64,000 nucleotides of DNA from a virus, in the IMG/VR virus record IMGVR_UViG_3300015371_000007, positions 1-64,000 of that record; one strand, given 5' to 3'. This document shows positions 35,394-50,976 of the stretch, piece by piece. Each line of letters begins with the position of its first letter. Positions within the stretch are counted from its first letter, which is position 1. A program made the position numbers and the translations under genes. The notes below the pieces were generated by a model that searched no databases, was not told where the DNA came from, and saw only the letters and a list, made by a program, of their open reading frames with translations.

Positions 35394-37898
35394 ATGCCGA
35401 AGCGCCCAATTCAGACCGTCCGTCCGAGCCCGTCGGACGATCTGCCGCCCGGTGCCGTCGGGGCGACCCTCGCCTCGAACCGCCCCGGCACTCTGACGCA
35501 AGCCTCCGCCGAAGAACTGGCGGAAGCCACCGCGCGCACCCAGCAAGAGAAGGCCGACGCCTTCATCGCCATCGCCCGCAAACGCTGGCGGCAAAGCGCC
35601 AGCAGTGAAGCCGAGCTGCGCAAGGACATGCTCGACGACCTGCGGTTCTACAACGCCGAGCAGTGGCCCGACAACATCCGGCTCGATCGCGTGCTCGACG
35701 GGCGTCCGTGTCTGACCATCAACCGGCTCCCGCAGTTCGTCCGACAGGTCCTCAACCAGGCGCGCCAGCAGCGGCCGGCGATTCAGTACAACCCGATCGA
35801 CAACGGGGCCGACGTCGACACCGCCGAAGTGCTGCAGGGCATCGCGCGCAGCATCGAGCGCAACTCCAACGCGCCGATGGCCTACAACACTGCCAACGAG
35901 CATCAGGTCATCATGGGCCGCGGGTGGCTCCGCGTCCGCGCCGACTGGATTGCCCACGATAGCTTCGACCAAGAAATCCTCATCGAGAGTCCCGAGGATC
36001 CCTTCATCGTCTATCCCGACGTCGCCGCGGGGAAACCCGATGGCAGCGACGCGCTGTGGGGCTTCCTCATCGCGCGCGTGCCCTGGTACGAATACAAGGT
36101 CAAGTACCCCGGCGCCGCCAAGGCGTCGATGTCGGACTGGACGAGCATCGGCGATGAAACCGCCGAGTGGGTCAATGAAAGCGGCGTGCTCGTCGCCGAG
36201 TATTACTACATCGACATGGTGCCGGCGGAGCTGGCCGAGTACTACGTCGACGTCGGCGCGCCGACCCCGCTCAAGATCACCACCTATCGCGACGTCATCC
36301 GCCCCGCCGACACCAAGCCCGGTCCGAACGGGGAGCCGCCGCGCGTCACGATCATCCGCACCCGCGAGACCGTGCGCCGCCAGCTCCGGTGGGCGACGAT
36401 CAACGGGCTCGAAGTCCTCGAAGGCAACGCCGACAAGACCGCCGGCCGCGATCTGCCGGGCCCCTTCATCCCGCTGGTGCCGGTCCAAGGCGAGAAGCTC
36501 GTCGTCAACGGCAAGCGGAACCTGCGCGGCATGGTCCGCGACGCCAAGGATCCCCAGCGGACCTACAACTTTTGGGTCAGTGCCGAGACCGAGCTGATTG
36601 CGCTGGCGCCGCGCGCGCCGGTCATCGGCGCGGTCGGCCAGTTCGAGTCGACCAAGGAGCAGTGGCTGCAGGCGAACCGCCGCAACTTCCCCTTCCTCGA
36701 ATACGACCCGATCGACGTCAACGGCAACCTCGTGCCGGCGCCGCAGCGCAACGCCTTCGACCCCAACATCAGCCCGATCGTCGCCGCCACCCAGCAGGCC
36801 GACATGGACCTCAAGTCCGTGATCGGCATGTTCGACGCGTCGCAGGAGCGCAGCCGCGAGCAGTCCGGCAAGGCGATCCTCGCCCGCCAGGCGCAAGGCG
36901 AACAGGGCACGTCGCATTTCCTCGCCCATCAGGCCTTGTCGATTCAGCAGGTCGGCCGGATTCTCCTGCACTGGATCCCGGTCTACTACGACCAGCCGCG
37001 CGTCATCCGCATCGTCGGCATCGACGACCGCGAGCGCGACGTGCTGGTGCACGCCGGCAATCCCGACGGGGCCGACCAGGCGCAGCAGCAGCTCAAGGAC
37101 GACCCGCTCATGCAGGCCGTCTCGTCGGGCGCCATCTACGACGTGGGCGTCGGCCGCTACGACGTCGGCGTCTCCGTCACGCCGTCGTTCCAGTCGCGCC
37201 GCGCGGAGTCAGTCGAGGCGATGACGTCCCTGCTCCAGACGTTCCCGCTGGCGGCACCCTACGCGCTCGACGTGATCACGAAGAACATGGACTGGCCGGG
37301 CGCGCGCGAGCTGTCCGAGCGCTTCAAGCACCTCGTGCCGGCCGAAGCGCGCGAGCCGGAGGACGGCAGCAAGCCGCTCCCGCCCGAAGTGCAGGCGCAG
37401 ATGGGGCAGATGCAGCAGCAAATGCAGCTGATGGGGCAGCAGCTCGAAGAGCAGCAGAAGATCATCGACACCAAGGCGACCGAGCAGGCCGGGCTCGCCA
37501 AGATCCGGCAGATGGAGCTGGAGTCCAACGAGCGCCTCGCCAAGATGAAGGGCGAGATCGAGATCGCCAAGGTCGAAGAGAAGGCCCGCGCCGAGGCCTC
37601 GCTCACCCTCCTCGAAGCCAAGCTCAAGGAACTAGAGAACCAGCAACTCTTCCTCCACGAGCGCAAGCTGCAGCTCGAAGCGCCCCAGCCCGGCGAGAAG
37701 GCCGCGCCCGAGAAGCGCCAGGTCTCGGAGAGCTTGAACTACAAGGACGCGCCGCCGGACGTCCGCCGCCAGATCGAGAAGCAGGCGGGGCTGGTCCCGT
37801 CGAAGCACAGCGATCTGGAGGTCAAGAAGCTGAAGGAAGAGGCCAAGCCGAAGCCGGCCCCGGCCGCAGTGAAGAAGAAACCCGATTTGAAGGCGTAG
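35394..37898 (+). CDS. Portal protein (P22 gp1-like)
   Basis: DDLRFYNAEQW, RPCLTINRL, GMVRDAKDPQRTYNFW, SGKAILARQ, C-terminal coiled-coil barrel. Confidence 0.95.
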   Translation: MPKRPIQTVRPSPSDDLPPGAVGATLASNRPGTLTQASAEELAEATARTQQEKADAFIAIARKRWRQSASSEAELRKDMLDDLRFYNAEQWPDNIRLDRVLDGRPCLTINRLPQFVRQVLNQARQQRPAIQYNPIDNGADVDTAEVLQGIARSIERNSNAPMAYNTANEHQVIMGRGWLRVRADWIAHDSFDQEILIESPEDPFIVYPDVAAGKPDGSDALWGFLIARVPWYEYKVKYPGAAKASMSDWTSIGDETAEWVNESGVLVAEYYYIDMVPAELAEYYVDVGAPTPLKITTYRDVIRPADTKPGPNGEPPRVTIIRTRETVRRQLRWATINGLEVLEGNADKTAGRDLPGPFIPLVPVQGEKLVVNGKRNLRGMVRDAKDPQRTYNFWVSAETELIALAPRAPVIGAVGQFESTKEQWLQANRRNFPFLEYDPIDVNGNLVPAPQRNAFDPNISPIVAATQQADMDLKSVIGMFDASQERSREQSGKAILARQAQGEQGTSHFLAHQALSIQQVGRILLHWIPVYYDQPRVIRIVGIDDRERDVLVHAGNPDGADQAQQQLKDDPLMQAVSSGAIYDVGVGRYDVGVSVTPSFQSRRAESVEAMTSLLQTFPLAAPYALDVITKNMDWPGARELSERFKHLVPAEAREPEDGSKPLPPEVQAQMGQMQQQMQLMGQQLEEQQKIIDTKATEQAGLAKIRQMELESNERLAKMKGEIEIAKVEEKARAEASLTLLEAKLKELENQQLFLHERKLQLEAPQPGEKAAPEKRQVSESLNYKDAPPDVRRQIEKQAGLVPSKHSDLEVKKLKEEAKPKPAPAAVKKKPDLKA

Positions 37899-38464: not shown

Positions 38465-38524
38465 GGGCGCCTCGTGAGACCGCGACTCATCTCGCGGATT
38501 CACGACGGCGCCCTTTCTTTTTTC
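38465..38524 (+). terminator. Long hairpin with U-tract (intrinsic terminator/attenuator) before the scaffold gene
   Basis: GGGCGCC-TCGTGA-..CCGCGA / TCGCGG-..TCACGA-.GGCGCCC followed by TTTCTTTTTT. Confidence 0.65.
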
Positions 38525-38551
38525 GCGGGTTCGTCCTGCGCCGTGGAGCCG

Positions 38552-39604
38552 ATGCCAGACGACACGATCACGCTGATCTCGACCACCGACACGCCGGAGC
38601 AGGTCACCGCCGCGCTGACCGGAAAGCCCGTGGAGGCGCCGGCCACGCCTCCGCCGGCCGCGCCCGTCGACGAGGCCGCGCCGCCGCCCGCGCCGCCGGC
38701 CGAAGAAACGCCCGAAGAGCGCGACACGCGTGAAGCCTCCGAGGCCGGCAGTCGGCTCGCGAAACGCAAGGCCAAGATTCAGGACGAGATCGATGAGCTG
38801 ACGCGCAGCAAGCACGCCGTGCGGCGCGACGTCGAAGCCGAGGAAGCGCGCCTCGCCGCGCTCCGGGCGGAACGCCCCGCGATCGATCCGTCGCACGCGC
38901 CCCGCGCCCAGGCGCCGCCCGAGCCCGCGGTCGCCGCGCCGCCGGACGAGACCCGGCCCGAACCGAAGCTCGACGCCCTCGACGACAAGGGCGTCGCCAA
39001 GTACGCGACGTACGAGGACTACCTCAGCGACCACGCGAAGTGGACGCGCGAAGAGGCGGTCGCCGCCGCCAAAAAGATTGTCGAGCAAGAAAAACTTGCC
39101 GAGCGCGAACGCATCGAACGCGACTCGGCCTCTCGTGTGGTCAACGAACATCTCGCCACCTACAACACCGACCTCGAGACGTTCAAGAAGACCCACGCCG
39201 ATTTCGATGCAGCGTTCGACGACGCGAAAGACGCGGTGCAGGAGACGTTGATCGGCCTCGGACCCAATGCCTTGAAGATCATCGACGGCTACACCGTCTT
39301 TGACGCCGAGGACGGGCCGGCGCTCACCTACTACCTCCTGAAACACCCGGACGAACTGAAGGCGATCGCGCTCAAGGCGCCGCACCAGCAGGTCGTCCAT
39401 CTCGCGCGCCTCGACGAACGTCTCCGCAGCGGGACCGCCAAAGCCACCGGCACGTCTCCCGCCGCACCAACACCAACCAGGGCCCCCGAACCTATTAAGC
39501 CGGTGGGATCGGGCCCTACGGCCACCACGGTGCCGATCGACGAGGAGTCCTTTCAGGACTACAAGCTGCGTCGCGAACGCGACCTGCGCGCCCGACGCGC
39601 CTAA
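38552..39604 (+). CDS. Capsid scaffolding protein
   Basis: KIQDEIDELTR, PEPKLD..., GPALTYYLLKHPDE, TRAPEPIKPV; position between portal and coat. Confidence 0.85.
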   Translation: MPDDTITLISTTDTPEQVTAALTGKPVEAPATPPPAAPVDEAAPPPAPPAEETPEERDTREASEAGSRLAKRKAKIQDEIDELTRSKHAVRRDVEAEEARLAALRAERPAIDPSHAPRAQAPPEPAVAAPPDETRPEPKLDALDDKGVAKYATYEDYLSDHAKWTREEAVAAAKKIVEQEKLAERERIERDSASRVVNEHLATYNTDLETFKKTHADFDAAFDDAKDAVQETLIGLGPNALKIIDGYTVFDAEDGPALTYYLLKHPDELKAIALKAPHQQVVHLARLDERLRSGTAKATGTSPAAPTPTRAPEPIKPVGSGPTATTVPIDEESFQDYKLRRERDLRARRA

Positions 39605-39673
39605 GTCCAGAAGTACCGCCATCCGTCTCGCGCAATGCGTGGAGCCGCCAGCAACTCGCTGATGAGGGCTCCG

Positions 39674-41020
39674 ATGAGGAAAGTTCTGCTCCGTTGGCTC
39701 CAGAACAACACGTTCTGCTGGGCCGTGTCGGCTGTCGTGACGTTCGTGGTGTATCTGCTGATCCAGCAGGGACACGACGCACGCGGCCTCAGTTACGCCG
39801 ATAACACGCTCCTGACGATTTCGATGATCACGCGCGAAGCGCTGCGGATCCTCGAAAACAACCTGTCGTTCACCAAGCGGATCAACCGCCAGTACGACGA
39901 CAAGTTCGCGATCGAAGGCGCGAAGATCGGCTACGTCGTCAACGCGCGTAAGCCCGTGCGCTACATCGTGTCCACCGGCCAGGCGCTGGCCCTGCAGGAT
40001 GCGACCGAGACGCAGGTTCCCGTGGCGCTCACCACGCAGGACCACGTCGACTTCCAGTTCTCCTCGGCCGACCTGAAGCTGTCGATCGACGACTTCGGGG
40101 ATCGCTTCATCCAGCCTGCCGTCGCCGCGCTGGCGAACAAGATGGATTTCAACGGGCTGCAGCTCTACAAGCAGATTTTCAACGCGGTCGGCACCCCCGG
40201 TGTCAACGTCGCCGACCTCCTGACCTATCTGCTCGCGGGCGTGAAGCTCGATAACAACGCGGCGCCGCAGGACGAGCAGCGCTACGTCGTCATCACGCCG
40301 AAGATGCAGGCGTACGTCGTCGACGCGCTGAAGGGGCTGTTCCAGCAGTCGACGGCGATCGCGACGCAGTACACGAAGGGCACGATGGGGATCGCCGGCG
40401 GCTTCACGTGGGCGATGGATCAGAACTGCCCGACCCACGTCAGCGGCACGTTCGCCGGCTCGCCGACCGTCAGCGCCGTCGCCGGCCAGACCGGCAGCTC
40501 GATCGACACGATCGCCTGGACCGCTGGCCCGTCGCTCAAGAAGGGCGACACCTTCACGATGGCGGGCGTTTTCTCGGTCAACCCGCAGTCGCGCCAGTCC
40601 ACCGGCGACCTGCAGCAGTTCACCGTGACGGCCGACGTCGCGTCGGCGGGCACAACCCTGACGATCGCGATCTCGCCGCCCATCATCACCAGCGGCGCCT
40701 TCCAGACCGTCTCGAACTCGCCGGCCGCGAGCGCGGCGATCGTCTACAACGCCGGGAGCGGCGCCTCGGGCGCGACCGGATCGTCCTCGCCCCTCGGCCT
40801 GGCGTTCCATCGCGACGCGTTCACGCTCGTCACCGCGGACCTGCCCGTGCCGAAGGGCACCGACATGGCCTCACGCGTGAGCGACAAGCAGCTCGGGATC
40901 TCGCTGCGCATCGTGCGCGACTACGACATCACGACCGACCAGTTCCCGTGCCGCATCGACGTGCTGTACGGCTGGGCGGTGCTGCGGCCTGAACTGGCCT
41001 GCCGCATTTACTCCGCGTAA
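39674..41020 (+). CDS. Major capsid (P22 coat-like) protein with a ~41-aa hydrophobic N-terminal leader
   Basis: NTLLTISMITREALRILENNL, FIQPAVAALAN, LAFHRDAFTL, CRIDVLYGWAVLRPELACR. Confidence 0.95.
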   Translation: MRKVLLRWLQNNTFCWAVSAVVTFVVYLLIQQGHDARGLSYADNTLLTISMITREALRILENNLSFTKRINRQYDDKFAIEGAKIGYVVNARKPVRYIVSTGQALALQDATETQVPVALTTQDHVDFQFSSADLKLSIDDFGDRFIQPAVAALANKMDFNGLQLYKQIFNAVGTPGVNVADLLTYLLAGVKLDNNAAPQDEQRYVVITPKMQAYVVDALKGLFQQSTAIATQYTKGTMGIAGGFTWAMDQNCPTHVSGTFAGSPTVSAVAGQTGSSIDTIAWTAGPSLKKGDTFTMAGVFSVNPQSRQSTGDLQQFTVTADVASAGTTLTIAISPPIITSGAFQTVSNSPAASAAIVYNAGSGASGATGSSSPLGLAFHRDAFTLVTADLPVPKGTDMASRVSDKQLGISLRIVRDYDITTDQFPCRIDVLYGWAVLRPELACRIYSA

Positions 41021-41045
41021 CGCGGCGCAGCAGGAGGACAGGCAC

Positions 41046-41657
41046 ATGGCTCTTACTCGGACGACTCTCTCAGGCGGCTGCTCGGCGACCGATTTCGAGA
41101 TCCTGGTCGCCAGCATCGCCGGCCTCAGCGTCGGCAGTTCGCTGAAGTGCGACGGGGAACAGATGCGCGTGCAGGCGATTGGGTCGTCCGCCGCCATCCC
41201 GGTCAAGGTCCTACGGGGCGTCGGGGGCACCGCCGTGGTCGCCCATCCGGCGAGTGCCGGCGTCGTCTTCGGCGATCCCGCGGACTTTCTCTACAAACCG
41301 CAGTCGGGCGGCAAGGGGCGCGACGTCGTCAGCTACAGCGCCTCCGGCGCGCTCACGCTGCCGGTCGCGGGGCGCGACGTGGTCGCGATCCTCAACGGCA
41401 CCGGCGCGCTCGCGATGACGCTCGCCGATCCGTCGAAGGAAAACGACGGCGACATGCTCTTCATCGCGAGCAACGGCAAGGCCGCGCATACGGTCACCAC
41501 GACGACTGGCTACGGTGACGGCGGCGCGTCCTACGTGAAGTTCACGTTCGCGGCCGGCGCCCGCAACGTACTCAACCTCGTAGCCATCAACGAACGGTGG
41601 GTGACGAGCCTTATCGGCGGGACCGCCACGGCGATCACGACGACGGTCTCGGCCTAA
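41046..41657 (+). CDS. Putative head decoration/cement protein, paralog 1
   Basis: Directly after the coat gene; beta-rich; highly similar to the next gene. Confidence 0.6.
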   Translation: MALTRTTLSGGCSATDFEILVASIAGLSVGSSLKCDGEQMRVQAIGSSAAIPVKVLRGVGGTAVVAHPASAGVVFGDPADFLYKPQSGGKGRDVVSYSASGALTLPVAGRDVVAILNGTGALAMTLADPSKENDGDMLFIASNGKAAHTVTTTTGYGDGGASYVKFTFAAGARNVLNLVAINERWVTSLIGGTATAITTTVSA

Positions 41658-41672
41658 CGGGAGGACAGGTCA

Positions 41673-42290
41673 ATGGCTCTAGTGCGGACAACTCTTTCAG
41701 GAGGCGTCGCGGCGACGGATCTGGAGATCCTGCTCGCGTCGCTCACCGGGCTCACCGTCGGCAGCACCCTCAAGATCGACGCCGAGCAGTTTCGCGTGCA
41801 GGCGCTGCCCTCAGCCGCGACCGTACCGGTCAAGGTGTTGCGCGGCGTGAACGGCACCAACGTCGCGGCCCATCCGACCGGCGCGGGCGTCGTGGGGGGC
41901 GATCCTGCCGACTTCGTGGGCAAGCCGCTCGCGCTTTCGGGCCGCGCGCGCGACGTTATCAGCTACAGCGCCTCGGGCGCGCTGACGCTGCCGACGCCGG
42001 GCCGCGACATGGTCGCCATCCTCAACGGCACGACCTTGCGTGCGATGACGCTGGCAGTGCCGACGAAGGAAAACGACGGCGACATCCTCATCGTCGTGGG
42101 CAACGGCAAGGCCGCGCACACGGTGACCATCAGCGGAGGCCTCGGCGCCGCTGGCGCTGGCTACACGGTCGGCACGTTCGACGTCGGCGCACAGTGCTCG
42201 ATGGAGTTTATCGCGGCCAACGAGGTGTGGGTGCCGCTGGGCTCGCCCATGTCGGGCACCCTGACCGCGGCGGACGTCGCCGTCGCGTAA
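41673..42290 (+). CDS. Putative head decoration/cement protein, paralog 2
   Basis: MALxRTTLSGG...SYSASGALTLP...KENDGD shared with paralog 1. Confidence 0.6.
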   Translation: MALVRTTLSGGVAATDLEILLASLTGLTVGSTLKIDAEQFRVQALPSAATVPVKVLRGVNGTNVAAHPTGAGVVGGDPADFVGKPLALSGRARDVISYSASGALTLPTPGRDMVAILNGTTLRAMTLAVPTKENDGDILIVVGNGKAAHTVTISGGLGAAGAGYTVGTFDVGAQCSMEFIAANEVWVPLGSPMSGTLTAADVAVA

Positions 42291-42295
42291 CGGTG

Positions 42296-44077
42296 ATGAC
42301 CGCGAACACGCGCGGGATGAGCGCGGCCCTGCTCGGGGCCGCGCTCCTTCTGTGGAGTGCGCCGACCGCGGCGCAGATCCTCGGACAGGACAACATCACG
42401 GCGAACGGCCAGGCGGTGGCGTTCATGGCGATCCCGGCGAACACCGGGGCCGTCACGTTCACGATCTCGGGCACGTGGACGGGCACGTTGCAGCTGGAAG
42501 TCACCGCGGACGGGACGAATTGGGTGGCGGCGGCGGCACTGCCCTCATCCGGCGGCGCCACGGTCAGCTCGACGACAGGGACGGGCGTCTGGTCGATTCT
42601 CAACTACGGGTTCGTCGGCTTCCGCGCGCGCGCGAGCGCTTTCGCGAGCGGCACGGCGGTCATCTCAGCGACGGCAGGGAAACAGGTCACGCTCAGCGGC
42701 GCCGTCACCGTCAGCGACATCACGTCGAGCGGGCGAATACTGCTCGCCAACGGGACGGCCAACGCGCCTAGTCTCAGTTTCTCTGGCGCGACGACGAATG
42801 GGCTCTGGAACAATGCCGGCCTGCCGACCTTTTCGGTGCTCGGCTCGGCCCGCGTGGGCTGGGGCTCCAGCACGATCGGGATGCAGCTCGACTCGGCCTA
42901 TCCGCTCTCGTGGAGCGGCACCACACCCGGCAACCCATCCGACGTCCTGCTCTTCCGCGACGGCGCGGGCGCGCTCGGGTTACGGCAAGGTGCGAACCAG
43001 CAGCGGGTCAACATCTATAACACCTACACCGACGCGAGTAACTACGAGCGCGGGTTCGCGTTGTGGAACGCGAATGCGTTCGTGATTGGGACGGAGTTTT
43101 TGGGCAGCGGGTCGGTGCGTTCGATGGCCTTCTCGACGCCCGCGTCGGGGAACATCTTCATGAGTCCCGGCAACTCCGACAAATGGATGTTTCAGGGGCT
43201 GGGGCACATCACGGCCGTCACCGACAACGTCTACGACATCGGCGCGAGCGGCGCGAACCGGCCGCGCAACCTCTTTCTCGGTGGCACCGTGACGGCCGGC
43301 GGCACGGTCAACACGGGCGCCAACTTCGGCATGAACTCCGGCGGGTCGATCGTGTGGGCGAGTCGGTCGGTGATCAACTCTCCTGCTGACGGCGTCGTCA
43401 CGCTGTTGAATAACACGTCCACGGATTTCACGCGCCTCAATTTCGGCGGGACCACGAGCGCGTTCCCGGCCATCTTTCGCAACAGCAACTTCCTTCAGAT
43501 CGGGCTGGCCGACGGCACGGGCGCGTCGACGGCGATCTCGTCGGGCAGCATCTCCAGCGGGCAGGTGCAGGTTAGCGGGCAGGCGATCACGGCTGGCTCT
43601 GGCGCGGGGATCACGCTGAACAATGCCGGCACCACGACCCGGCAGGTCTACAAGGTCACGATCACGCCCGCGGCCTTCATCTGCAACGCCGTGACGTGCG
43701 ACATCACGATCGCGACGATCCCTGACAAGACGCTACTCGCGGGCGTGCTGGCGGACATGACCCAGGTCTTCGCGTGCGCCGCCGTGTGCACGAGCGCGAC
43801 CTTGTCGTTCCAGCTGGGCACCGGATCTGGCGGCACCCAATTCCTCGCGTCGTTCGACGCGGATGCGGCGATCGGACGATTCGGCACCACCGACGCGCAG
43901 ATGGGCACCTTGAACAACAGGGCCGCAGCCGTTCAGGGCGGGGTGTGGATTTCTGGCGGGACGCAGACCGTGGTCCTGCGATTGACGAGCGGCACGGGCG
44001 TGGTCGGCACCGGCGCGGCGACGAATCTCTCGCAGGGCAGCATCACCTTCTATCTCATCACCGACCGACTGCCGTAG
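42296..44077 (+). CDS. Fibre-like structural-module protein with a Sec-type signal peptide
   Basis: MTANTRGMSAALLGAALLLWSAPTAA|QILG; GTANAPSLSF and DNVYDIGASGANRPRNLF fibre-like motifs. Confidence 0.7.
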   Translation: MTANTRGMSAALLGAALLLWSAPTAAQILGQDNITANGQAVAFMAIPANTGAVTFTISGTWTGTLQLEVTADGTNWVAAAALPSSGGATVSSTTGTGVWSILNYGFVGFRARASAFASGTAVISATAGKQVTLSGAVTVSDITSSGRILLANGTANAPSLSFSGATTNGLWNNAGLPTFSVLGSARVGWGSSTIGMQLDSAYPLSWSGTTPGNPSDVLLFRDGAGALGLRQGANQQRVNIYNTYTDASNYERGFALWNANAFVIGTEFLGSGSVRSMAFSTPASGNIFMSPGNSDKWMFQGLGHITAVTDNVYDIGASGANRPRNLFLGGTVTAGGTVNTGANFGMNSGGSIVWASRSVINSPADGVVTLLNNTSTDFTRLNFGGTTSAFPAIFRNSNFLQIGLADGTGASTAISSGSISSGQVQVSGQAITAGSGAGITLNNAGTTTRQVYKVTITPAAFICNAVTCDITIATIPDKTLLAGVLADMTQVFACAAVCTSATLSFQLGTGSGGTQFLASFDADAAIGRFGTTDAQMGTLNNRAAAVQGGVWISGGTQTVVLRLTSGTGVVGTGAATNLSQGSITFYLITDRLP

Positions 44078-44097
44078 ACCGACGAAGCGAGGTGCCT

Positions 44098-44313
44098 GTG
44101 AGTGATGACCCTGTAGTCCAACGCTATCCCGCGTGGCGCTATCACGCGACCGAACCGGCCGTGGTCGTGGAGAACGCGGAGGCTGACGAACGGCTCGGCG
44201 ACGGCTGGTTCGACTCGCCAGCGCTCACGAAGCCGGCGAAGGCCGCGAAGAAAACCGAGGAGCCGGCCGAGGAGCCGGAGCCCGAGGAACCGCACCACAA
44301 GCGCCGCAAGTAA
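44098..44313 (+). CDS. Small protein (YPAWRYH...GWFDSPA)
   Basis: GAGG RBS; pattern seen in P22-like head modules. Confidence 0.65.
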   Translation: MSDDPVVQRYPAWRYHATEPAVVVENAEADERLGDGWFDSPALTKPAKAAKKTEEPAEEPEPEEPHHKRRK

Positions 44314-44337
44314 CGCGCGCGGCGTGAGGGCCGCACC

Positions 44338-45072
44338 ATGACGGCACGCGACATCATCACCGCGACGCTGCGCAGCATTCGTGTGCTCGGCGTGGGCGAT
44401 ACCCTTCTGGCCGAAGACGCCAATGATGCCTTCGACCGCCTGAACGACTGGCTGGACGGGCTCGCCTTGGAGCGCCTGGCGATCTACTACGTCACGCGCA
44501 CGAGCGTGCCGCTGGCGGCGAGCACGGCCACTTACACCATTGGCACCGGCGGCGTGATCAACATCGTGCGGCCGACGCAGATCGAGGCCGCGGGCTTGAT
44601 TCAGGACCCGAGCAACCCGGTCCCGTTCGAGCAGGGCGTCGAAATCTGGACGGATCAGCGTTGGCAGCAGTGCCCGAACAAGACGCTCACGAGCACCTAC
44701 GTGCAGGCGATCTACTACGACCACAATTGGGTCGCCGGGCTTGGCACGATCTACGTCTGGCCGATCCCGACCATCGGCACCACGCGGCTGGTGCTCTACA
44801 CGCCGGTCGCGTTGGCGGAGTTCGCGACGCTCGATACGAACTACACCTTCCCGCCGGGCTATCGCCGGTACATCCGCACCAACTTCGCCGCCGAGATCGC
44901 CTCGGAGTACGGCAAGCAGCTCTCGTCGGACCAAGTCGCGGCCGCGCGCCACGCGAAGGCGCAGGTCAAGCGCGCGAACATCCGCCCGGTCGAGTCGCGC
45001 GTCGATGCGGCGCTCCTGACCTCGTCTGAACAGTTCGATTGGCGGACGGGAGACTGGAAAGGGGGACGGTGA
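44338..45072 (+). CDS. Head-to-tail adaptor (P22 gp4-like)
   Basis: MTARDIITATLRSIRVLG...LNDWLD...FPPGYRRYI..NFAAEIASEYG. Confidence 0.8.
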   Translation: MTARDIITATLRSIRVLGVGDTLLAEDANDAFDRLNDWLDGLALERLAIYYVTRTSVPLAASTATYTIGTGGVINIVRPTQIEAAGLIQDPSNPVPFEQGVEIWTDQRWQQCPNKTLTSTYVQAIYYDHNWVAGLGTIYVWPIPTIGTTRLVLYTPVALAEFATLDTNYTFPPGYRRYIRTNFAAEIASEYGKQLSSDQVAAARHAKAQVKRANIRPVESRVDAALLTSSEQFDWRTGDWKGGR

Positions 45073-47243
45073 GCAACCGTGTCCCCTTCGCGGGGTTCGT
45101 CGGCAGTGCCTTCAAGGCGTCGAGTCCGCGCTTCGAGATTCAGGACCTGTGGAACTGGTTCGTCGAGCGCGCCGAGTCGCCGGGGGCGAAGTCCGGCCAG
45201 GTGCTCTTGCCGTGTCCCGGCTTCGAGACGTTCGCGACGCTGCCGACCTTGCCGGTGCGCGGCGTGTTCGCGCAGAACAACCGGACGTTTGCCGTGGGCG
45301 GCGACACGCTCTACGAGCTGACGCGGCTCGGCGGCATCCTCACGCGCGCGACCACGGCGATTACGACCCCGGCGACCCCGATCATTACCAACAGCCCGCT
45401 CGCGCCCGCGCTGGTGAAGGCGAATCCGCCCGTCGTCACGCACGGCGGCGCGCTGGGCTCGACCACCTACGGCTACAAGGTCACGGCGACCAACGCCTAC
45501 GGCGAGACAGACGCCTCGCTGGAAGGCACGAGCCCCTACGGCAACGCCACGCTCTCGGGCACCAACTGGAACATCATCAGCTGGTCCGCGGTCGACGGCG
45601 CGACCGGGTACAAGCTCTATCGCACGACGGGCGGCGGCGCGGTGCCGGTCCTCGTGGCGGTCCTCAAGTCGACGACGCTGGTCTACAACGACCTCGGCAC
45701 GTCGGGCACGGCGGCGACGCCCCCGACGAGTAACACCAGCGGCGGCACGGTCGGCACGACGACCTACGGCTACAAGGTGACCGCGACGCTCGGCTTGGGC
45801 TCGACGGCCGCGAGCGCCGAAGGCGTGACCATCACCGGCCAGGCGACGCTCAGCTCCACCAACTACAACATCGTCACGTGGGCGAAGGTCACCAACGCGC
45901 GGGGCTATCAGGTCTACCGCACGACCGGCACGTCGGTGGGCACGGGCACGACCGTCCACCTCCCGCCGCCGCGCCTCATCGCCACCATCGACAGCCCCGA
46001 CACGCTGACGACGCAAGACATTGGCGACGATGGCGACAGCAAGACGCCGCCGACCACGAACACGACCGGCACCGCCGTCGTGCTGAACGACGGGTTGCCC
46101 GTCACCTTTTGCTCCAGCGGCGATGCCGGCGGACAGCTGTTCTTCGTGAGCGGCGGCACCGGCTACTGCTATGACCTTCGGACGGACGTCCTCGCGCCCG
46201 TGATTACCGGCGCCAACGCGAGCGGGTTCATTGACAGTTACTTCGTCTGCCTCGACGCCAACACCTCGACGCTGAAGGTCTCGGAGTCCTTCAACGGCTT
46301 CCTGTGGGACGCGACGCAGGTCTACCAGCGTGCGCGCGCGGGCGATAAGTGGCTGTCGATGGCGGTGACCTCGAACGAGATCTGGCTCATCGGCTCGCAG
46401 ACCGGCGAGGTGTGGACCGGCACCGGCAACGATGAGGCGCGCTTCACCCCCTACACGCCCGTTTTTCTCGAGACCGGCATCATCGCGACGGCCTCGATGG
46501 TGCGCGTGGCGGGCTCGCTGATGTGGGTCGCGCAGGACAAGGACGGCGCCGGCTACGTGGTCCGCACCAGCGGGTATCAGCCGCAGCGCGTGAGCACGGT
46601 CGCCGTCGATTACTCGATCCAACGACTCCAGACCATCGCCGACGGCTACGCCTTCAGTTATCAGATGGACGGCCACGCCTTCTATGTGCTGACGTTCCCG
46701 ACCGACCAAACGACCTGGGTCTACGACCTCGGGACCAACGAGTGGCACCGCCGCGGGTATTGGGATAGCGCGGCGATGACCTATGTCGCGTACCGGCCGC
46801 AGTGTTACACGTTCGCGTTCGGCGGGCTGGGCTTCGGCACCAACCTCGTGGGCGATCGTTCGTCCGGGCGCGTCTGCCGGATGCTCACCGATGCGGGCGT
46901 GGACGTCGATGGCTCCGTGATTCGCCGGCTGCGGCAGGCGCCGCACGTGGTCGACCACGACCAAGAGCTGACCTTCGACCGGTTGCAGATGGACATGGAC
47001 GTCGGCGTCGGGCTCTCGGCGGGCCAAGGCAGCGACCCGACGATGATGCTGTCGTACTCCAACGATGGCGGGTTGACATGGGGCAAGGAGCTGTGGCGCA
47101 GCGCCGGCCGGCAGGGCGACCGCCGGATTCAGGTGGCGTGGTCGCGGCTCGGCACGGCGAAGCTGCGCGTCTTTCGCCTCGTCGTCAGTGACCCGGTGCC
47201 GTGGCGCCTGGTCGGCGCGTGGCTGGAGCTGGAGGGCTCGTGA
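45069..47243 (+). CDS. Packaged-DNA stabilization/tail nozzle protein (P22 gp10-like) with inserted tandem beta-domains
   Basis: QRVSTVAV, GHAFYVLTFP, TWVYDLGTNEWH, DPTMMLSYSNDGGLTW. Confidence 0.85.
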   Translation: MSNRVPFAGFVGSAFKASSPRFEIQDLWNWFVERAESPGAKSGQVLLPCPGFETFATLPTLPVRGVFAQNNRTFAVGGDTLYELTRLGGILTRATTAITTPATPIITNSPLAPALVKANPPVVTHGGALGSTTYGYKVTATNAYGETDASLEGTSPYGNATLSGTNWNIISWSAVDGATGYKLYRTTGGGAVPVLVAVLKSTTLVYNDLGTSGTAATPPTSNTSGGTVGTTTYGYKVTATLGLGSTAASAEGVTITGQATLSSTNYNIVTWAKVTNARGYQVYRTTGTSVGTGTTVHLPPPRLIATIDSPDTLTTQDIGDDGDSKTPPTTNTTGTAVVLNDGLPVTFCSSGDAGGQLFFVSGGTGYCYDLRTDVLAPVITGANASGFIDSYFVCLDANTSTLKVSESFNGFLWDATQVYQRARAGDKWLSMAVTSNEIWLIGSQTGEVWTGTGNDEARFTPYTPVFLETGIIATASMVRVAGSLMWVAQDKDGAGYVVRTSGYQPQRVSTVAVDYSIQRLQTIADGYAFSYQMDGHAFYVLTFPTDQTTWVYDLGTNEWHRRGYWDSAAMTYVAYRPQCYTFAFGGLGFGTNLVGDRSSGRVCRMLTDAGVDVDGSVIRRLRQAPHVVDHDQELTFDRLQMDMDVGVGLSAGQGSDPTMMLSYSNDGGLTWGKELWRSAGRQGDRRIQVAWSRLGTAKLRVFRLVVSDPVPWRLVGAWLELEGS

Positions 47244-49735
47244 TCCCTCCGCCCAAGAACGCCGTCACCGATCCGCAGACCGGCCGCGTCACGGTGGAGT
47301 GGCTCAGTTGGCTGACGGACCTCGCCGACGCGGCGAGCGGCACCACGCCGACGACGCCGACGACCCCCAGCGGCGGCGGCAGCTCCGGGAGCGGCAGCTC
47401 CTCGGCGGCGCTGCCATTCAACCTCGTGACGGGCAGCGGCACCCTCGGCGCGCTGCCGAAGTGGGTCGGCGACAAGATCCTCGGTGACTCGATCATGGCC
47501 GAGGTCGGCGGGGTCATCACCGTCGCCGGCACGCTGTCGGCGATCGGGCTGCGAGCGAGCACCGCCGACATCGCGTTACTGACGGGCACCAACCTCACGC
47601 TGAGCGGCACGCTCACGGCGGGCACGGCGAACATCAGTGGGACGACGACCACGGGCCGACTGGTCGTGACCAACGACATCGCCTCACACCTCATCCCGTC
47701 GCTGACCGACACGTGGGATCTCGGCCGGTTCGATCGGCTGTGGAACCAGGCCTACATTTCGCAGATCAACGCCGTGGTCTTTGCGCGCACGACGCAGACG
47801 CTCTTCGGCGGGTATTCGACGATCGGGAAGAACGCCGGCTCCTTCACGGCCGATGTCGTCGCCGCCGACGTCACGACGATCAACTTCGGGCAGGCGATGA
47901 CGCCGAACGATTTCGTGCTGGTGCGCGCCACCGACACGAGCGGCCCGACCATCAAGGCCGAGTACCTGCAGATCGGCACGTTAGTCAGCGGGACGACCTA
48001 CAACGTCACGCGCGATCTCAGCGGGCTCTACGCGGCCAACGCCAATCCGACCTGGCCGAGCGGCACGCCGTATCTCGTGCTGGGCAACAGCGGCGACGGC
48101 CGGATCGATATGTACGCGTACGACGGGCGCCCGCGCACGGTCTACACCGTGCAGGGCGCGACCTACAACGCGCAGACGGACCGCGGCGTCATTGGGAACC
48201 TGAACGGCTACTACGGATACGTCACCAACGTCTTCGGCGCCGCGTTCGGCGACGCGACCAAGGCGTGGATCAAGATCGACGACGACCCGACGACGGGCGG
48301 GGTGAAGCTCGGGTACGGCGCGACGACCACGGTCCGGATTTCCTCGACGGGCGCGTCGAGCTTCGAGAGCGGCATCACCATCGGCGCGACCGGCAGTCTG
48401 ACAGCCGGCGGCGTCGTGCTGAATAGCTCCGGCCTGTATATCGACCCGGTCAGCGCGTCCGGCGGGGGCGCGTTTACGAATAACAACGCGGTGCGTTGGA
48501 CGACCGACGTGACGTATCACACGGCGATCTGGCGGTCGGATGATACGGCCGGAACGGCGATTAAGTACTGGAACTTCGATCAAATCAACGACTACGCCAC
48601 GGTTTACTCCAAGACGTACTTCAACACTCAGCAACGGTGTGCGCCGGGCTCGGCGATCTTTTGCTGGAGTCGGATGGTGCAGTGGGGCAAAGCGATGGGG
48701 GACGCCGAGTTGCTCTTGGTCTGCAGCGCGACCGACACGGTCAGTCGCTTCGAGGCCTACATCTGGATGTGGGGCTATTACACCGGCGGCTACGGGCAAC
48801 AGATCCAGATCGGTTTCGGGACCGCCCCGTCGATGAACGGCAGCGGGGGTGGAACTGGCGGCGTCTTCAGCAGCGGCCTCGTTCTCCGCAGCTCCGGCGC
48901 GGCGAACTCCGGCGCGACGGAGAACCGAGGGACGTTCACGTCGTATGGCTGCATCTCCGTCGCCGTCGAGGGGTCGACTGACACGCAGCTGCTGAACCTG
49001 TTCCGCATCACCGTCAGCAACGACCAGTCGGGCCTCGGCCATAACCTGCGGTGGGTGAGTGGGTCCGGCTTCCATCGCGGGGATACCGGGAAGTCCGGCT
49101 GGGGGATCCGCTTCGTCGGCAGCTCCAGCGGCGATGTCTTCTACATCGAGCGCGCCGCCGCCGGACCGGCTAACCCGCTGGCGCCCGTGCAGCTCTGGCA
49201 GATCGGGGCCACAGGCGTCGTCACTATGACCAACGCCCTCAACTTCAGCACAGACCCCGGCAGCTGGATCGACTGCGACATCGCCACACGGATCCGCATC
49301 ATCAGCAGCTATTCGGGCTTGAACCGCTGGGTGACGTGGGACGGCGTGCAGTGGTACTGCGCGACTGACGGCGTCGCGAATCTCGGGCACGGCGCCGGGC
49401 GCTGGAACACGCTCTACGCAACCAACGGGACGATCAACACGTCGGATGCGCGCACGAAGACCGACATCATCGAGACCGCTTTCGGGACCGCGTTCCTCAT
49501 GGCGCTGCGGCCCATCGACTTCCGGTGGAAGAACCCAGCGTGGGACGAGCGCCCGCATCACGGGTTCCTCGCGCAGGACGTCGCGCGCGTCGCGCCCGGC
49601 TTCGGGGGCCTGGAGTGGAACGTCGCGCACGAAGCGGTCGGCCTGAACTACATGACCTTCATCGGCCCGTTGGTCGCGGGCTTTCAGGATCACGAAACGC
49701 GCCTCCGCGCGCTGGAGCACCGTCATGGCGAATGA
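47240..49735 (+). CDS. Tail fibre/spike with C-terminal S74 intramolecular chaperone
   Basis: TINTSDARTKTDI...LRPIDFRWK...HGFLAQDV. Confidence 0.85.
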   Translation: MIPPPKNAVTDPQTGRVTVEWLSWLTDLADAASGTTPTTPTTPSGGGSSGSGSSSAALPFNLVTGSGTLGALPKWVGDKILGDSIMAEVGGVITVAGTLSAIGLRASTADIALLTGTNLTLSGTLTAGTANISGTTTTGRLVVTNDIASHLIPSLTDTWDLGRFDRLWNQAYISQINAVVFARTTQTLFGGYSTIGKNAGSFTADVVAADVTTINFGQAMTPNDFVLVRATDTSGPTIKAEYLQIGTLVSGTTYNVTRDLSGLYAANANPTWPSGTPYLVLGNSGDGRIDMYAYDGRPRTVYTVQGATYNAQTDRGVIGNLNGYYGYVTNVFGAAFGDATKAWIKIDDDPTTGGVKLGYGATTTVRISSTGASSFESGITIGATGSLTAGGVVLNSSGLYIDPVSASGGGAFTNNNAVRWTTDVTYHTAIWRSDDTAGTAIKYWNFDQINDYATVYSKTYFNTQQRCAPGSAIFCWSRMVQWGKAMGDAELLLVCSATDTVSRFEAYIWMWGYYTGGYGQQIQIGFGTAPSMNGSGGGTGGVFSSGLVLRSSGAANSGATENRGTFTSYGCISVAVEGSTDTQLLNLFRITVSNDQSGLGHNLRWVSGSGFHRGDTGKSGWGIRFVGSSSGDVFYIERAAAGPANPLAPVQLWQIGATGVVTMTNALNFSTDPGSWIDCDIATRIRIISSYSGLNRWVTWDGVQWYCATDGVANLGHGAGRWNTLYATNGTINTSDARTKTDIIETAFGTAFLMALRPIDFRWKNPAWDERPHHGFLAQDVARVAPGFGGLEWNVAHEAVGLNYMTFIGPLVAGFQDHETRLRALEHRHGE

Positions 49736-50484: not shown

Positions 50485-50544
50485 CTGGCGTACATCGCAC
50501 CCGTTTTGCGATCGGGGGTGACGGATCCGCAGAATCGACTCGGC

Positions 50545-50976
50545 ATGATCCGCCCCGCCACGGAAGACGACGTTCCGCGCCTGGTCGAAATGGGCGAGCG
50601 GTTTCTCACGGAGACGGTTTATCGCACGCGCGTCCCGGTCAATCCGCAGCAGATGGCGACAACGGTGTTGCGGCTACTCGCGACGGAGACCGGCGCCGTG
50701 TTCGTGTCGGAGCGCGACGGCGCGCTGGTCGGGATGATCGGCCTGCTGGCCTTCACCAACCCGATCACCGGCGAGCCCACGATCAGCGAGCTGTTCTGGT
50801 GGGTCGAGCCGGAGCATCGCGGGTGCGGCCTGCGGTTGCTGCGACGCGCCGAAGCCTGGGGGCGTGAAAGCGGCGCGGCGAAGGTGCACATGATCGCGCC
50901 GACACCGGACGTCGCGCGGCTCTACGAGCGGCTCGGCTACGAGCAACTCGAAACCACGTTTCAGAGGGCACTGTAA
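50545..50976 (+). CDS. GNAT-family acetyltransferase in the virion module
   Basis: MIRPATEDDVPRL...ELFWWVEPEHRG...LYERLGY. Confidence 0.85.
   Translation: MIRPATEDDVPRLVEMGERFLTETVYRTRVPVNPQQMATTVLRLLATETGAVFVSERDGALVGMIGLLAFTNPITGEPTISELFWWVEPEHRGCGLRLLRRAEAWGRESGAAKVHMIAPTPDVARLYERLGYEQLETTFQRAL

What the first reader, a model, noticed from the sequence alone, without database searches (positions are those of the whole stretch)
42296..44077. Second structural-module protein carries a classical Sec signal peptide
Seen: MTANTRG-MSAALLGAALLLW-SAPTAA|QILG, a typical n/h/c signal peptide with a small-residue SPase I site, on a 593-aa fibre-like beta protein between the decoration genes and the adaptor. 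Inference: together with the coat leader, this suggests a morphogenesis pathway in which some virion parts are exported or matured at the membrane or periplasm and joined late or after lysis. Alternatively it is a secreted superinfection-exclusion or receptor-decoy protein.
Basis: partly seen in the sequence, partly recalled or inferred. Interest (0 to 1): 0.75.

Follow-up and report, generated by a model that had tools for sequence, protein, structure and literature searches.

The report
Phage fibre protein with export signal
An uncultured short-tailed phage encodes, among its head and tail genes, a fibre-like protein whose export signal looks genuine; it belongs to a large, undescribed, virus-only family of exported proteins, so it most likely works in the host's cell envelope and not as a normally assembled part of the virus particle.

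Summary
ORF 42296-44077 (593 aa) starts with a textbook Sec signal: n-region with Arg6, a 13-residue hydrophobic core, then SAPTAA|Q. No other start codon avoids it.

It is not chance. The last 164 residues are a jelly-roll domain (CTD). This domain defines a virus-only family of 523 representative clusters. It always lies at the extreme C-terminus, and about 85% of members begin with a classical signal, often cut before Gln. A conserved Cys pair is kept or lost together.

The protein is modular:
- signal peptide
- a 120-aa beta-sandwich, possibly XepA/YomS-like
- a tail-fibre shaft
- the CTD

The gene is accessory. Close relatives with the same coat-adaptor module lack it or swap its tip. The coat's hydrophobic leader is real and conserved in this clade, but occurs without the exported fibre, and the reverse is also true.

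My best reading (0.5) is a late, Sec-exported envelope fibre that is not built into virions. It resembles PBSX XepA and the Bdellovibrio MAT fibres in layout.

No signal-peptide predictor and no experiment were available. The scan has noted signal-bearing fibre modules in other phages before.

The parts
42296..44077 (+). Whole gene, 593 aa (P0001), including the stop codon
   Evidence: GC3 is 0.89 in this frame. It is the only copy in the 94.5-kb virus record.
42296..42373 (+). Predicted Sec signal peptide, aa 1-26: n-region 42296-42316, h-region 42317-42355, c-region 42356-42373. Predicted SPase I cut between A26 and Q27 (42373|42374).
   Evidence: Read from the sequence. The family consensus is M-R/K...L-rich...A-x-A|Q.
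42374..42730 (+). N-domain (ND), aa 27-145: a beta-sandwich that in relatives always follows the signal peptide directly. Candidate XepA/YomS-like domain (PF27453).
   Evidence: phmmer E 1e-14 to 6e-7 to the post-signal domains of P0117, P0262, P0122, P0220, P0125, P0234, P0192 and P0134. Alignment A4. P0122 and P0134 carry precomputed PF27453, which the Atlas names XepA. The Atlas structure match has TM 0.78/0.86. hhalign to YomS gives only E 0.048.
42731..43555 (+). Tail-fibre-like shaft, aa 146-420. The widely shared core is aa 212-406 (42929-43513), with motifs YNTYTDASNYER and DNxYDIGASGANRPRN.
   Evidence: 274 homologs, and about 150 of the 120+ scored pieces cover aa 212-406. pLDDT is 75-85 here. 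There are weak fold matches to the Bdellovibrio Bd2133 fibre, lambda gpJ and T4 gp34, and stronger ones to predicted viral fibres.
43583..44074 (+). C-terminal jelly-roll domain (CTD), aa 430-593, with Cys463, Cys468, Cys494 and Cys498. This domain defines the family.
   Evidence: 56 proteins at 50-65% identity. 523 representative clusters. AF2 pLDDT 85.5. VIA Z scores are 10.4, 10.0 and 9.2 to the podophage cement proteins 7eel_H, 8h89_J and 7dou_4 (Foldseek). C494 and C498 are present together in 154 of 168 members and absent together in the other 14.
44099..44314 (+). Small 71-aa ORF (motif YPAWRYHATEPAVVV) that fills the gap before the adaptor. It is also present in relatives.
   Evidence: L097, L105, L106.
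41673..42290 (+). Upstream 205-aa gene, a paralog of 41046-41657 and a presumed decoration protein. Its stop lies 5 nt before the start of the fibre gene.
   Evidence: Homologs follow the coat gene in most relatives.
44338..45072 (+). SU10-type head-tail adaptor. It marks the downstream edge of the variable coat-to-adaptor cargo region.
   Evidence: PF24175 at E 2.8e-8 and phrog_12985 at E 4e-39.

Best explanation
The gene encodes a late-expressed, Sec-exported, modular fibre that acts in the host cell envelope and is not built into the virion in the cytoplasm.

Steps, each marked as shown or inferred:
1. It is transcribed with the structural genes. Shown only indirectly: tight packing, same strand, and no promoter- or terminator-like site.
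2. The 26-residue signal takes the chain through SecYEG, and signal peptidase I cuts after Ala26, leaving Gln27. This is inferred from the sequence and from the family-wide presence of such signals.
3. It folds outside the cytoplasm, where the conserved Cys494/Cys498 pair of the C-terminal jelly-roll can oxidise. This is inferred from the co-presence and co-loss of the two cysteines.
4. It probably trimerises like the tail-fibre shafts it resembles (inferred).
5. The conserved N-domain, next to the cut site, would hold it to an envelope component. The exchangeable C-terminal jelly-roll would bind a widespread envelope ligand.

Its job is most likely one of three: helping release at lysis, as proposed for the exported PBSX protein XepA; masking or occupying surface structures so that other phages, or the phage's own progeny, do not adsorb; or acting as a phage-borne surface adhesin. 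I cannot tell these apart.
For: - Signal anatomy, and no usable downstream start.
- Proteins found by the CTD alone carry classical signals: about 51 of 54 and 92 of 115, against 5 of 66 ORFs of this phage under the same rule. The negatives are mostly fragments.
- A small-x-small-Gln motif occurs in 69% of the family, against 5% of coat homologs.
- The family is virus-only according to the Atlas. Minimal members are just signal plus CTD, 180-220 aa, so they have no room for a virion anchor.
- In the shaft family, the 12 of 120 members with a signal lack the N-terminal modules with which most signal-less members begin.
- The gene is accessory. In relatives with the same portal-scaffold-coat ... 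adaptor-nozzle order, the coat-to-adaptor interval varies from 0.6 to 3.9 kb, and L106, L107 and L109 lack the gene.
- Family members sit next to an endolysin (L075, L086) or a lipoprotein (L084), upstream of the terminase or portal genes (L069, L085, L081), or after tail fibre or spike genes (L077, L091).
- The Cys pair co-varies.
- Precedents: XepA is late, exported and absent from particles (PMC6834076). Bdellovibrio MAT fibres have a signal, a roughly 130-aa beta-rich N-domain, a phage-like trimeric shaft and a variable tip, and sit on the cell surface (PMC10769870).
Against: - No trained signal-peptide predictor was run and there is no experiment.
- In a two-membrane host, Sec export only reaches the periplasm. 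No route across the outer membrane is evident.
- The gene sits inside the head-to-neck block. A second lineage (L110) has a signal-plus-N-domain protein at the same spot, which could mean a head-linked role.
- The best fold matches of the CTD are capsid cement proteins.
- Between close relatives the N-part is conserved and the tip is swapped. This is also the pattern of a virion-anchored fibre.
- Earlier notes of this scan report signal-bearing fibre modules elsewhere and claim such proteins were detected in purified particles of cultured phages. I did not check this.
- The link to XepA/YomS is weak.
- The host is unknown.
Confidence: 0.5

Rival explanations
1. It is an exported virion part. 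The fibre is exported, matures in the periplasm (disulfide, trimer) and binds the finished particle only when lysis mixes the compartments. Binding would be either through the N-domain or through the cement-like jelly-roll, making it a head fibre or accessory fibre.
For: - Position directly after the coat and presumed decoration genes and before the adaptor.
- The CTD's best fold matches are trimeric capsid cement proteins at Z 10.4, 10.0 and 9.2, above the generic jelly-rolls at Z below 8.
- L110 has a signal-plus-N-domain protein at the same position.
- The base is conserved and the tip swapped between near-identical phages.
- Optional head decorations are typically dispensable, which fits its absence in L106, L107 and L109.
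- Earlier scan notes describe whole fibre modules with signals in other phages (unchecked).
Against: - The CTD is 50-65% identical across phages whose coat proteins belong to unrelated families, with GC from 35 to 73%. That is hard to square with a capsid-lattice binder.
- L091 has a separate Bbp16-type cement gene.
- The known cement protein GP4 gp1 is traced from Ala2, so it has no signal.
- Family genes are often far from coat genes and next to lysis genes.
- I know of no precedent for assembly of a tailed-phage part after lysis.
- Dilution at lysis would make binding inefficient (inference).
Confidence: 0.17
2. It is a conventional cytoplasmic virion fibre. The hydrophobic N-terminus is not used for export. 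It would be buried in the particle or serve as a transient membrane tether.
For: The shaft is homologous to ordinary phage tail fibres. The gene lies in the structural operon with no signals of its own. The coat of the same phage also has a hydrophobic N-terminal extension.
Against: The segment has every feature of a cleavable signal and is too short (13 aa) for a membrane span. The same n/h/c layout with A-x-A|Q recurs in about 85% of a family whose signal sequences are otherwise unrelated. That is the signature of selection for Sec targeting. At least one member has a lipobox instead (P0248).
Confidence: 0.08
3. The C-terminal domain is a sorting or secretion tag, as in type IX secretion cargo, and takes variable passengers across the outer membrane. 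The fibre is then displayed on the infected or lysogenic cell.
For: The layout is a signal, a variable passenger (fibre, parallel beta-helix, or none) and a conserved beta-sandwich at the extreme C-terminus in every member. Gln at +1 is frequent, as in the 'Q-rule' described for Bacteroidetes signal peptidase I substrates (the rule as cited in PMC10367356).
Against: There is no Pfam or NCBIfam match to known sorting domains. At about 160 aa the domain is twice the size of known type IX tags (my knowledge). Most members are passenger-less, so the domain is itself the functional unit. The family is virus-only.
Confidence: 0.07

Closest known systems
XepA (PBSX exported protein) and YomS (SPbeta) of Bacillus subtilis prophages
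   Same: Both are late phage proteins built of beta-sandwich domains and encoded at the end of the tail-fibre genes or by the lysis genes. XepA is exported during phage development and is absent from mature particles (PMC6834076; yomS context). Relatives of the N-domain carry the Pfam family named XepA. Several family members lie beside lysis genes.
   Different: XepA has no classical signal peptide; it is listed among non-classically secreted proteins (PMC1266369, the title and abstract listed plus my own knowledge). It is pentameric, comes from a one-membrane host, and has no fibre shaft and no CTD. Direct comparison of the N-domain profile with YomS is weak (E 0.048, probability 1%). The CTD did not match XepA among the top 50 fold hits.
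Mosaic adhesive trimer (MAT) fibres of Bdellovibrio bacteriovorus
   Same: The layout is the same: a signal peptide, a conserved beta-rich N-domain of about 130 aa directly after it, a phage-tail-fibre-like trimeric shaft and an exchangeable C-terminal tip. MAT fibres show that such fibres fold after Sec export and sit on a cell surface (PMC10769870). The best solved-structure hit of the whole model is the Bd2133 fibre (E 3e-3). One shaft homolog is a 1747-aa signal-bearing protein in a Bdellovibrionales MAG (L033).
   Different: MAT fibres are bacterial, not phage-encoded. No homology was detectable between the N-domains (E 0.42). The tips are different.
Trimeric jelly-roll capsid cement proteins of podophages (Pam1, GP4 gp1, KHP30/KHP40)
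   Same: These are the best fold matches to the CTD (Z 10.4, 10.0 and 9.2). In this window the gene follows the coat gene.
   Different: There is no sequence similarity. The known members have no signal peptide (GP4 gp1 is traced from Ala2). The CTD family is conserved across phages with unrelated coat types and often lies away from the coat gene.
Signal-bearing accessory genes inside phage late regions (lambda Lom and Bor, Cor, T5 Llp) and the signal-bearing unknown genes of Porphyromonas phages
   Same: These are phage genes with Sec or lipoprotein signals, set among or next to tail and lysis genes, that act on the host envelope (my knowledge for Lom, Bor, Cor and Llp; PMC10367356 for the Porphyromonas phages).
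   Different: They are small outer-membrane proteins or lipoproteins with no fibre shaft and no homology to this protein. Typical morons have their own promoter and terminator, and none is seen here.

Membership tests
Sec-type (SPase I) signal peptide | Positively charged n-region | tested here: met
   MTANTRG contains Arg6. The charge is lost if translation starts at M8.
Sec-type (SPase I) signal peptide | Uncharged hydrophobic h-region of about 7-15 residues | tested here: met
   MSAALLGAALLLW is 13 aa, with a Kyte-Doolittle mean of 2.27 over 11 residues.
Sec-type (SPase I) signal peptide | Small, uncharged residues at -3 and -1 of the c-region | tested here: met
   In SAPTAA|Q, Thr is at -3 and Ala at -1. 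The family consensus is A-x-A|Q.
Sec-type (SPase I) signal peptide | Call by a trained predictor, and export and cleavage shown by experiment | not testable with these tools
   No SignalP or similar tool was available and no wet-lab data exist. Only a home-made rule was used.
Lipoprotein (SPase II) or Tat signal | Lipobox Cys at +1, or a twin-arginine motif | tested here: not met
   There is no Cys before residue 463 and no RR in the n-region.
XepA/YomS (Pfam PF27453) | Match of the N-domain to the family model | tested here: inconclusive
   The model is absent from the local Pfam library. The homologs P0122 and P0134 carry the precomputed hit. The Atlas structure match is to a cluster in which 27% carry PF27453. 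hhalign to YomS gives E 0.048. A profile search of solved structures found no XepA.
XepA/YomS (Pfam PF27453) | Exported late protein that is absent from mature particles | not testable with these tools
   This needs fractionation and virion proteomics.
Podophage jelly-roll cement proteins | Jelly-roll fold like Pam1, GP4 and KHP40 cement proteins | tested here: met
   VIA Z 10.4 (rmsd 3.1, 120 aligned), 10.0 and 9.2. Foldseek E 1.2e-4.
Podophage jelly-roll cement proteins | Cytoplasmic protein without a signal, encoded beside and co-evolving with its coat protein | tested here: not met
   About 85% of the family carry a signal. The CTD is 50-65% identical across phages with unrelated coat families and in varied positions. 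GP4 gp1 has no signal.
Virion-attached tail fibre | Homology of the shaft to phage tail-fibre proteins | tested here: met
   Relatives include fibres with collagen or S74 chaperone domains.
Virion-attached tail fibre | N-terminal particle-anchoring module | tested here: not met
   The N-terminus is a signal peptide followed by the ND. It lacks the modules that begin most signal-less relatives; that those modules anchor a fibre to the particle is my inference, not tested. There is no similarity to the phage's own fibres.
Bdellovibrio MAT fibres | Signal, roughly 130-aa beta-rich N-domain, trimeric phage-like shaft and variable tip | tested here: met
   The architecture matches. The tip swap is seen in P0002.
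Bdellovibrio MAT fibres | Homology of the conserved N-domain | tested here: inconclusive
   hhalign of the ND profile to the N-terminus of a Bdellovibrionales homolog gives E 0.42. No true MAT sequence was at hand.
Type IX secretion cargo | Recognised C-terminal sorting domain | tested here: inconclusive
   No Pfam or NCBIfam hit. The host and its secretion systems are unknown.
Known anti-phage defence or exclusion proteins | Match to a PADLOC model | tested here: inconclusive
   No hit for P0001 or five family members.

The most novel reading that the evidence does not exclude
Part of a tailed phage particle matures outside the cytoplasm. The fibre is exported by Sec, cut before Gln27, oxidised and trimerised in the periplasm, and then decorates the DNA-filled capsid only at lysis. 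Its cement-like jelly-roll or its N-domain would serve as the anchor. More than 500 clusters of related phage proteins would share this route.
Probability: 0.17. Interest if true: 0.85.

Novelty: new variant of a known kind. Interest (0 to 1): 0.55.

Why it matters
Tailed phages are thought to build their particles wholly in the cytoplasm, and only a few small phage proteins are known to be sent to the host envelope. This gene belongs to a large family (523 clusters at 50% identity). The family is seen only in viruses, has no match in the Pfam, PHROGs, NCBIfam and PADLOC libraries searched here or in a collection of 50,697 deposited phage records, and almost always carries an export signal.

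Whatever it does, whether it helps lysis, blocks other phages, sticks cells to surfaces or decorates particles after lysis, it marks an unstudied way for phages to act on the cell envelope from inside the infected cell. The modules recombine freely: signal, N-domain, shaft or enzyme, jelly-roll tip. That makes the family a possible source of envelope-binding parts. If the bold reading were true, it would change the textbook account of virion assembly.

Tried and rejected
Contexts were obtained through the search for related loci instead.
- There was no Pfam, PHROGs, PADLOC or NCBIfam hit for P0001 or family members.
- tblastn of P0001 found nothing in 50,697 deposited phage records.
- Profiles of the CTD and of the ND found nothing in the sequences of solved structures.
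- The full-length AF2 model was poor (pLDDT 61) outside aa 200-420, so the fold of the N-domain could not be tested with my own model.
- PF27453 could not be searched directly because it is not in the local library.
- The three closest relatives are DNA-identical over the first 150 nt, so synonymous and non-synonymous changes in the signal could not be compared.
- 'Decoy of the phage's own receptor-binding protein' was rejected: there is no similarity to any other gene of the phage.
- 'Moron with its own promoter and terminator' was rejected: none was found, and the gene is packed 5 nt and 21 nt from its neighbours. The scan covers sigma-70-type sites only.
- 'Plain cement protein' was rejected for the reasons given under the membership test.
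- 'Coat leader and exported fibre form one pathway' was rejected by the survey of relatives.
- The host could not be assigned.
Full report
**Setting.** The window is the first 64 kb of a 94.5-kb linear IMG/VR virus record, estimated 93% complete, with about 67% G+C. Around the finding the + strand reads as follows:
- P22-type portal, 35394-37898
- scaffold, 38474-39604
- P22-type coat, 39635-41020
- two paralogous 204-aa genes
- the target gene, 42296-44077
- a 71-aa ORF
- SU10-type adaptor, 44338-45072
- nozzle, 45039-47243
- tail fibre with an S74 chaperone, 47201-49735
- ejection-type proteins and a 7,823-aa ORF

This is a podophage structural block.

**The observation.** The upstream gene stops at 42290, and ATG 42296 follows 5 nt later. 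A second ATG (M8) also precedes the hydrophobic core. The next in-frame starts are V41 and M44. Third-position G+C is 0.92 over the first 300 nt of the gene in this frame, but 0.55 in the same frame upstream of 42296. Translation therefore begins at M1 or M8, and the hydrophobic segment is translated. The segment has a basic n-region, a 13-residue h-region (too short for a membrane span) and SAPTAA|Q. It has no lipobox and no twin-arginine motif.

**Architecture.** BLAST of 120 homologs onto the query shows four parts.
- *Signal and N-domain.* Residues 1-145 are shared closely only with P0002, a protein from a near-identical phage whose coat is 98% identical and lies on the same 49-kb contig.
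- *Shaft.* Residues 212-406 are a very widespread tail-fibre shaft module with motifs YNTYTDASNYER and DNxYDIGASGANRPRN. Most proteins that share it begin with N-termini typical of phage fibres. Twelve of 120 begin with signal peptides instead.
- *C-terminal domain.* Residues 430-593 were at first shared with only two proteins, both of which carry a signal.

**The key result.** A search with residues 430-593 alone found 56 proteins that are 50-65% identical in this C-terminal domain (CTD). Their N-terminal parts are unrelated: fibre, parallel beta-helix, or almost nothing. About 51 of 54 start with M-K/R, a Leu-rich core and A-x-A|Q.

An exhaustive phmmer search with the same 164 residues found 523 representative clusters. 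In the 150 best hits that are listed, the domain runs to within a few residues of the C-terminus, and the proteins are 112-1121 aa long. Of 115 new representatives, 92 pass my signal rule. Most of the rest are fragments or lower-scoring fibre-type proteins. The same rule passes 5 of 66 ORFs of this phage.

A small-x-small-Gln motif at residues 13-42 is present in 69% of the family, 29% of the shaft family and 5% of coat homologs. The Atlas neighbours of the CTD are all viral clusters of 150-220 aa with no Pfam family. So the signal on P0001 is a family trait kept by selection, not a chance hydrophobic stretch.

Cys494 and Cys498 are present together in 154 of 168 members and absent together in the other 14. 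The first Cys pair is less constant. This fits a disulfide formed outside the cytoplasm, but does not prove one.

**Folds.** The full-length model is poor outside the shaft (pLDDT 61). Its matches are tail-fibre-like proteins: the Bdellovibrio Bd2133 fibre, lambda gpJ, T4 gp34 and many predicted phage fibres.

The CTD modelled alone is confident (pLDDT 85.5, pTM 0.78) and is an eight-stranded jelly-roll. Its best matches are the trimeric capsid cement proteins of Pam1 (Z 10.4), GP4 (Z 10.0) and KHP40 (Z 9.2), then a baseplate protein of siphophage R4C (Z 8.1). Generic jelly-rolls follow at Z below 8. GP4's cement protein is traced from Ala2, so it has no signal (PMC9698820).

**N-domain.** Residues 27-145 match (E 1e-14 to 6e-7) the domains that directly follow the signal peptide in eight other family members. 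Two of these carry the precomputed Pfam family PF27453, which the Atlas names XepA. The Atlas model of residues 27-129 matches, at TM 0.78/0.86, a viral cluster of 108-aa proteins of which 27% carry that family.

XepA is the 'PBSX exported protein'. It is made late, exported beyond the membrane and absent from mature particles. It is built of two beta-sandwiches, lies in the lytic cassette and is cytotoxic when spotted on cells (PMC6834076). I fetched YomS from SPbeta and compared it with the N-domain profile. The result was E 0.048 at 1% probability, with a plausible but weak alignment. I treat the link as a lead.

**Contexts.** Twenty-six IMG/VR loci encode CTD proteins, in phages of 35-73% G+C. 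Their positions vary:
- directly before an endolysin (L075, a 1024-aa signal + beta-helix + CTD protein; L086)
- before a small lipoprotein (L084)
- between terminase and portal, together with a second small signal-bearing gene (L081)
- upstream of the terminase (L069, L085)
- after a tail fibre or spike (L077, L091)

The coat proteins of these phages belong to different families and have no leader. L091 has its own Bbp16-type cement gene.

**Survey of coat relatives.** Twenty-four loci with related coats keep the order portal-scaffold-coat ... adaptor-nozzle, but the coat-to-adaptor interval ranges from 0.6 to 3.9 kb.
- L109, L106 and L107 have leadered coats and no fibre gene.
- L105 and L108 carry other genes in the interval.
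- L097-L100 carry the P0002 form, with the same signal, N-domain and shaft but a different C-terminal domain.
- L110 (coat 71% identical) has at the same place a 340-aa protein with its own, different signal peptide (MKKHLVVFVLVTALALLATTTRTSA|Q). An N-domain follows, then a third module that sits after the signal peptide in other family members.

The gene is therefore an exchangeable accessory in a cargo slot. The coat leader is real and conserved in about 60 close homologs, while more distant ones start at MANTLLTISMIT. It is nevertheless independent of the exported fibre.

**Interpretation.** Export by Sec is the plain reading, and I put it near 0.8. What the exported protein does is open. 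I favour a role in the envelope outside the particle (0.5 for the full statement) for these reasons:
- Minimal family members have no room for a particle anchor.
- In the shaft family the signal takes the place of the N-terminal modules with which most signal-less members begin.
- The CTD is too conserved across unrelated capsids to be a lattice binder.
- The gene is dispensable in the clade.
- Neighbours are often lysis genes.
- Two precedents exist. XepA is an exported late phage protein that is not in particles. The Bdellovibrio MAT fibres have the same layout of signal, conserved N-domain of about 130 aa, phage-like trimeric shaft and variable tip, and they sit on the cell surface (PMC10769870). 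I found no homology between the N-domains.

It rests on the position in the head block, the cement-like fold, the recurrence of a related protein at the same spot in L110 and the conserved-base, swapped-tip pattern.

**Earlier notes of this scan.** They report signal-bearing fibre modules in several other uncultured phages, and they priced the bold reading at 9-30% after checks. I did not test their claim that such proteins occur in purified particles of cultured phages. They led me to Matrishin et al. 2023. That paper reports signal peptides on Porphyromonas phage genes, including coat proteins, and notes the Gln-at-+1 rule of Bacteroidetes (PMC10367356).

**Limits.**
- No trained signal predictor was run and there is no experiment.
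- The host is unknown.
- Gene calls in the related loci are my own crude ORF picks.
- The N-domain fold was not modelled with confidence.

Noticed in passing
window 39635-39800 (coat gene 39635-41020): The P22-type coat protein has an N-terminal extension of about 50 aa with a basic start and a hydrophobic stretch of about 20 aa. About 60 close homologs have an equivalent extension whose sequence is not conserved. More distant homologs start directly at MANTLLTISMIT. GC3 of the extension is 0.80. It is a real feature of this clade, and its function is unknown.
   Followed up: partly
window 54822-64000, running on to 78293 of the record: A single 7,823-aa ORF (23.5 kb, GC3 0.90) follows the ejection-type genes. 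It takes up a quarter of the genome.
   Followed up: no
window 41020-44338, and loci L104-L111 and L117: The interval between coat and adaptor is a variable cargo slot, 0.6 to 3.9 kb in relatives. A gene homologous to the two 204-aa genes is nearly always present, and the other genes come and go.
   Followed up: partly
window 44099-44314: A small 71-aa ORF with the motif YPAWRYHATEPAVVV...GEGWFDSP and an acidic, Pro-rich tail. Homologs occupy the same slot in L097, L105 and L106.
   Followed up: no
L110:11119-12141: A 340-aa protein with its own signal peptide, an N-domain containing a CSTAGSC motif, and a third module that follows the signal peptide in P0004, P0030 and P0159. This points to shuffling of several modules among exported phage proteins.
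   Followed up: partly
L081:3817-4158, L077:10693-11646, L084:3127-3804 and 10222-10434: Further small genes with signal peptides or a lipobox lie directly beside CTD-family genes in unrelated phages. They may be partner proteins.
   Followed up: no
record 82512-83152 (L095:4513-5153): Two adjacent small proteins of 104 and 109 aa have hydrophobic N-terminal segments. They could be holin-type lysis genes, and they lie about 40 kb from the fibre gene.
   Followed up: no
record 78446-79324 (L095:447-1325): A second tail-fibre or collar-type gene (several PHROG tail-fibre families, E down to 4e-19) lies after the giant ORF, apart from the main tail genes.
   Followed up: no
window 50506-50976: An acetyltransferase gene (phrog_1249, E 1.6e-29) sits between the tail-fibre and ejection-type genes.
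   Followed up: no
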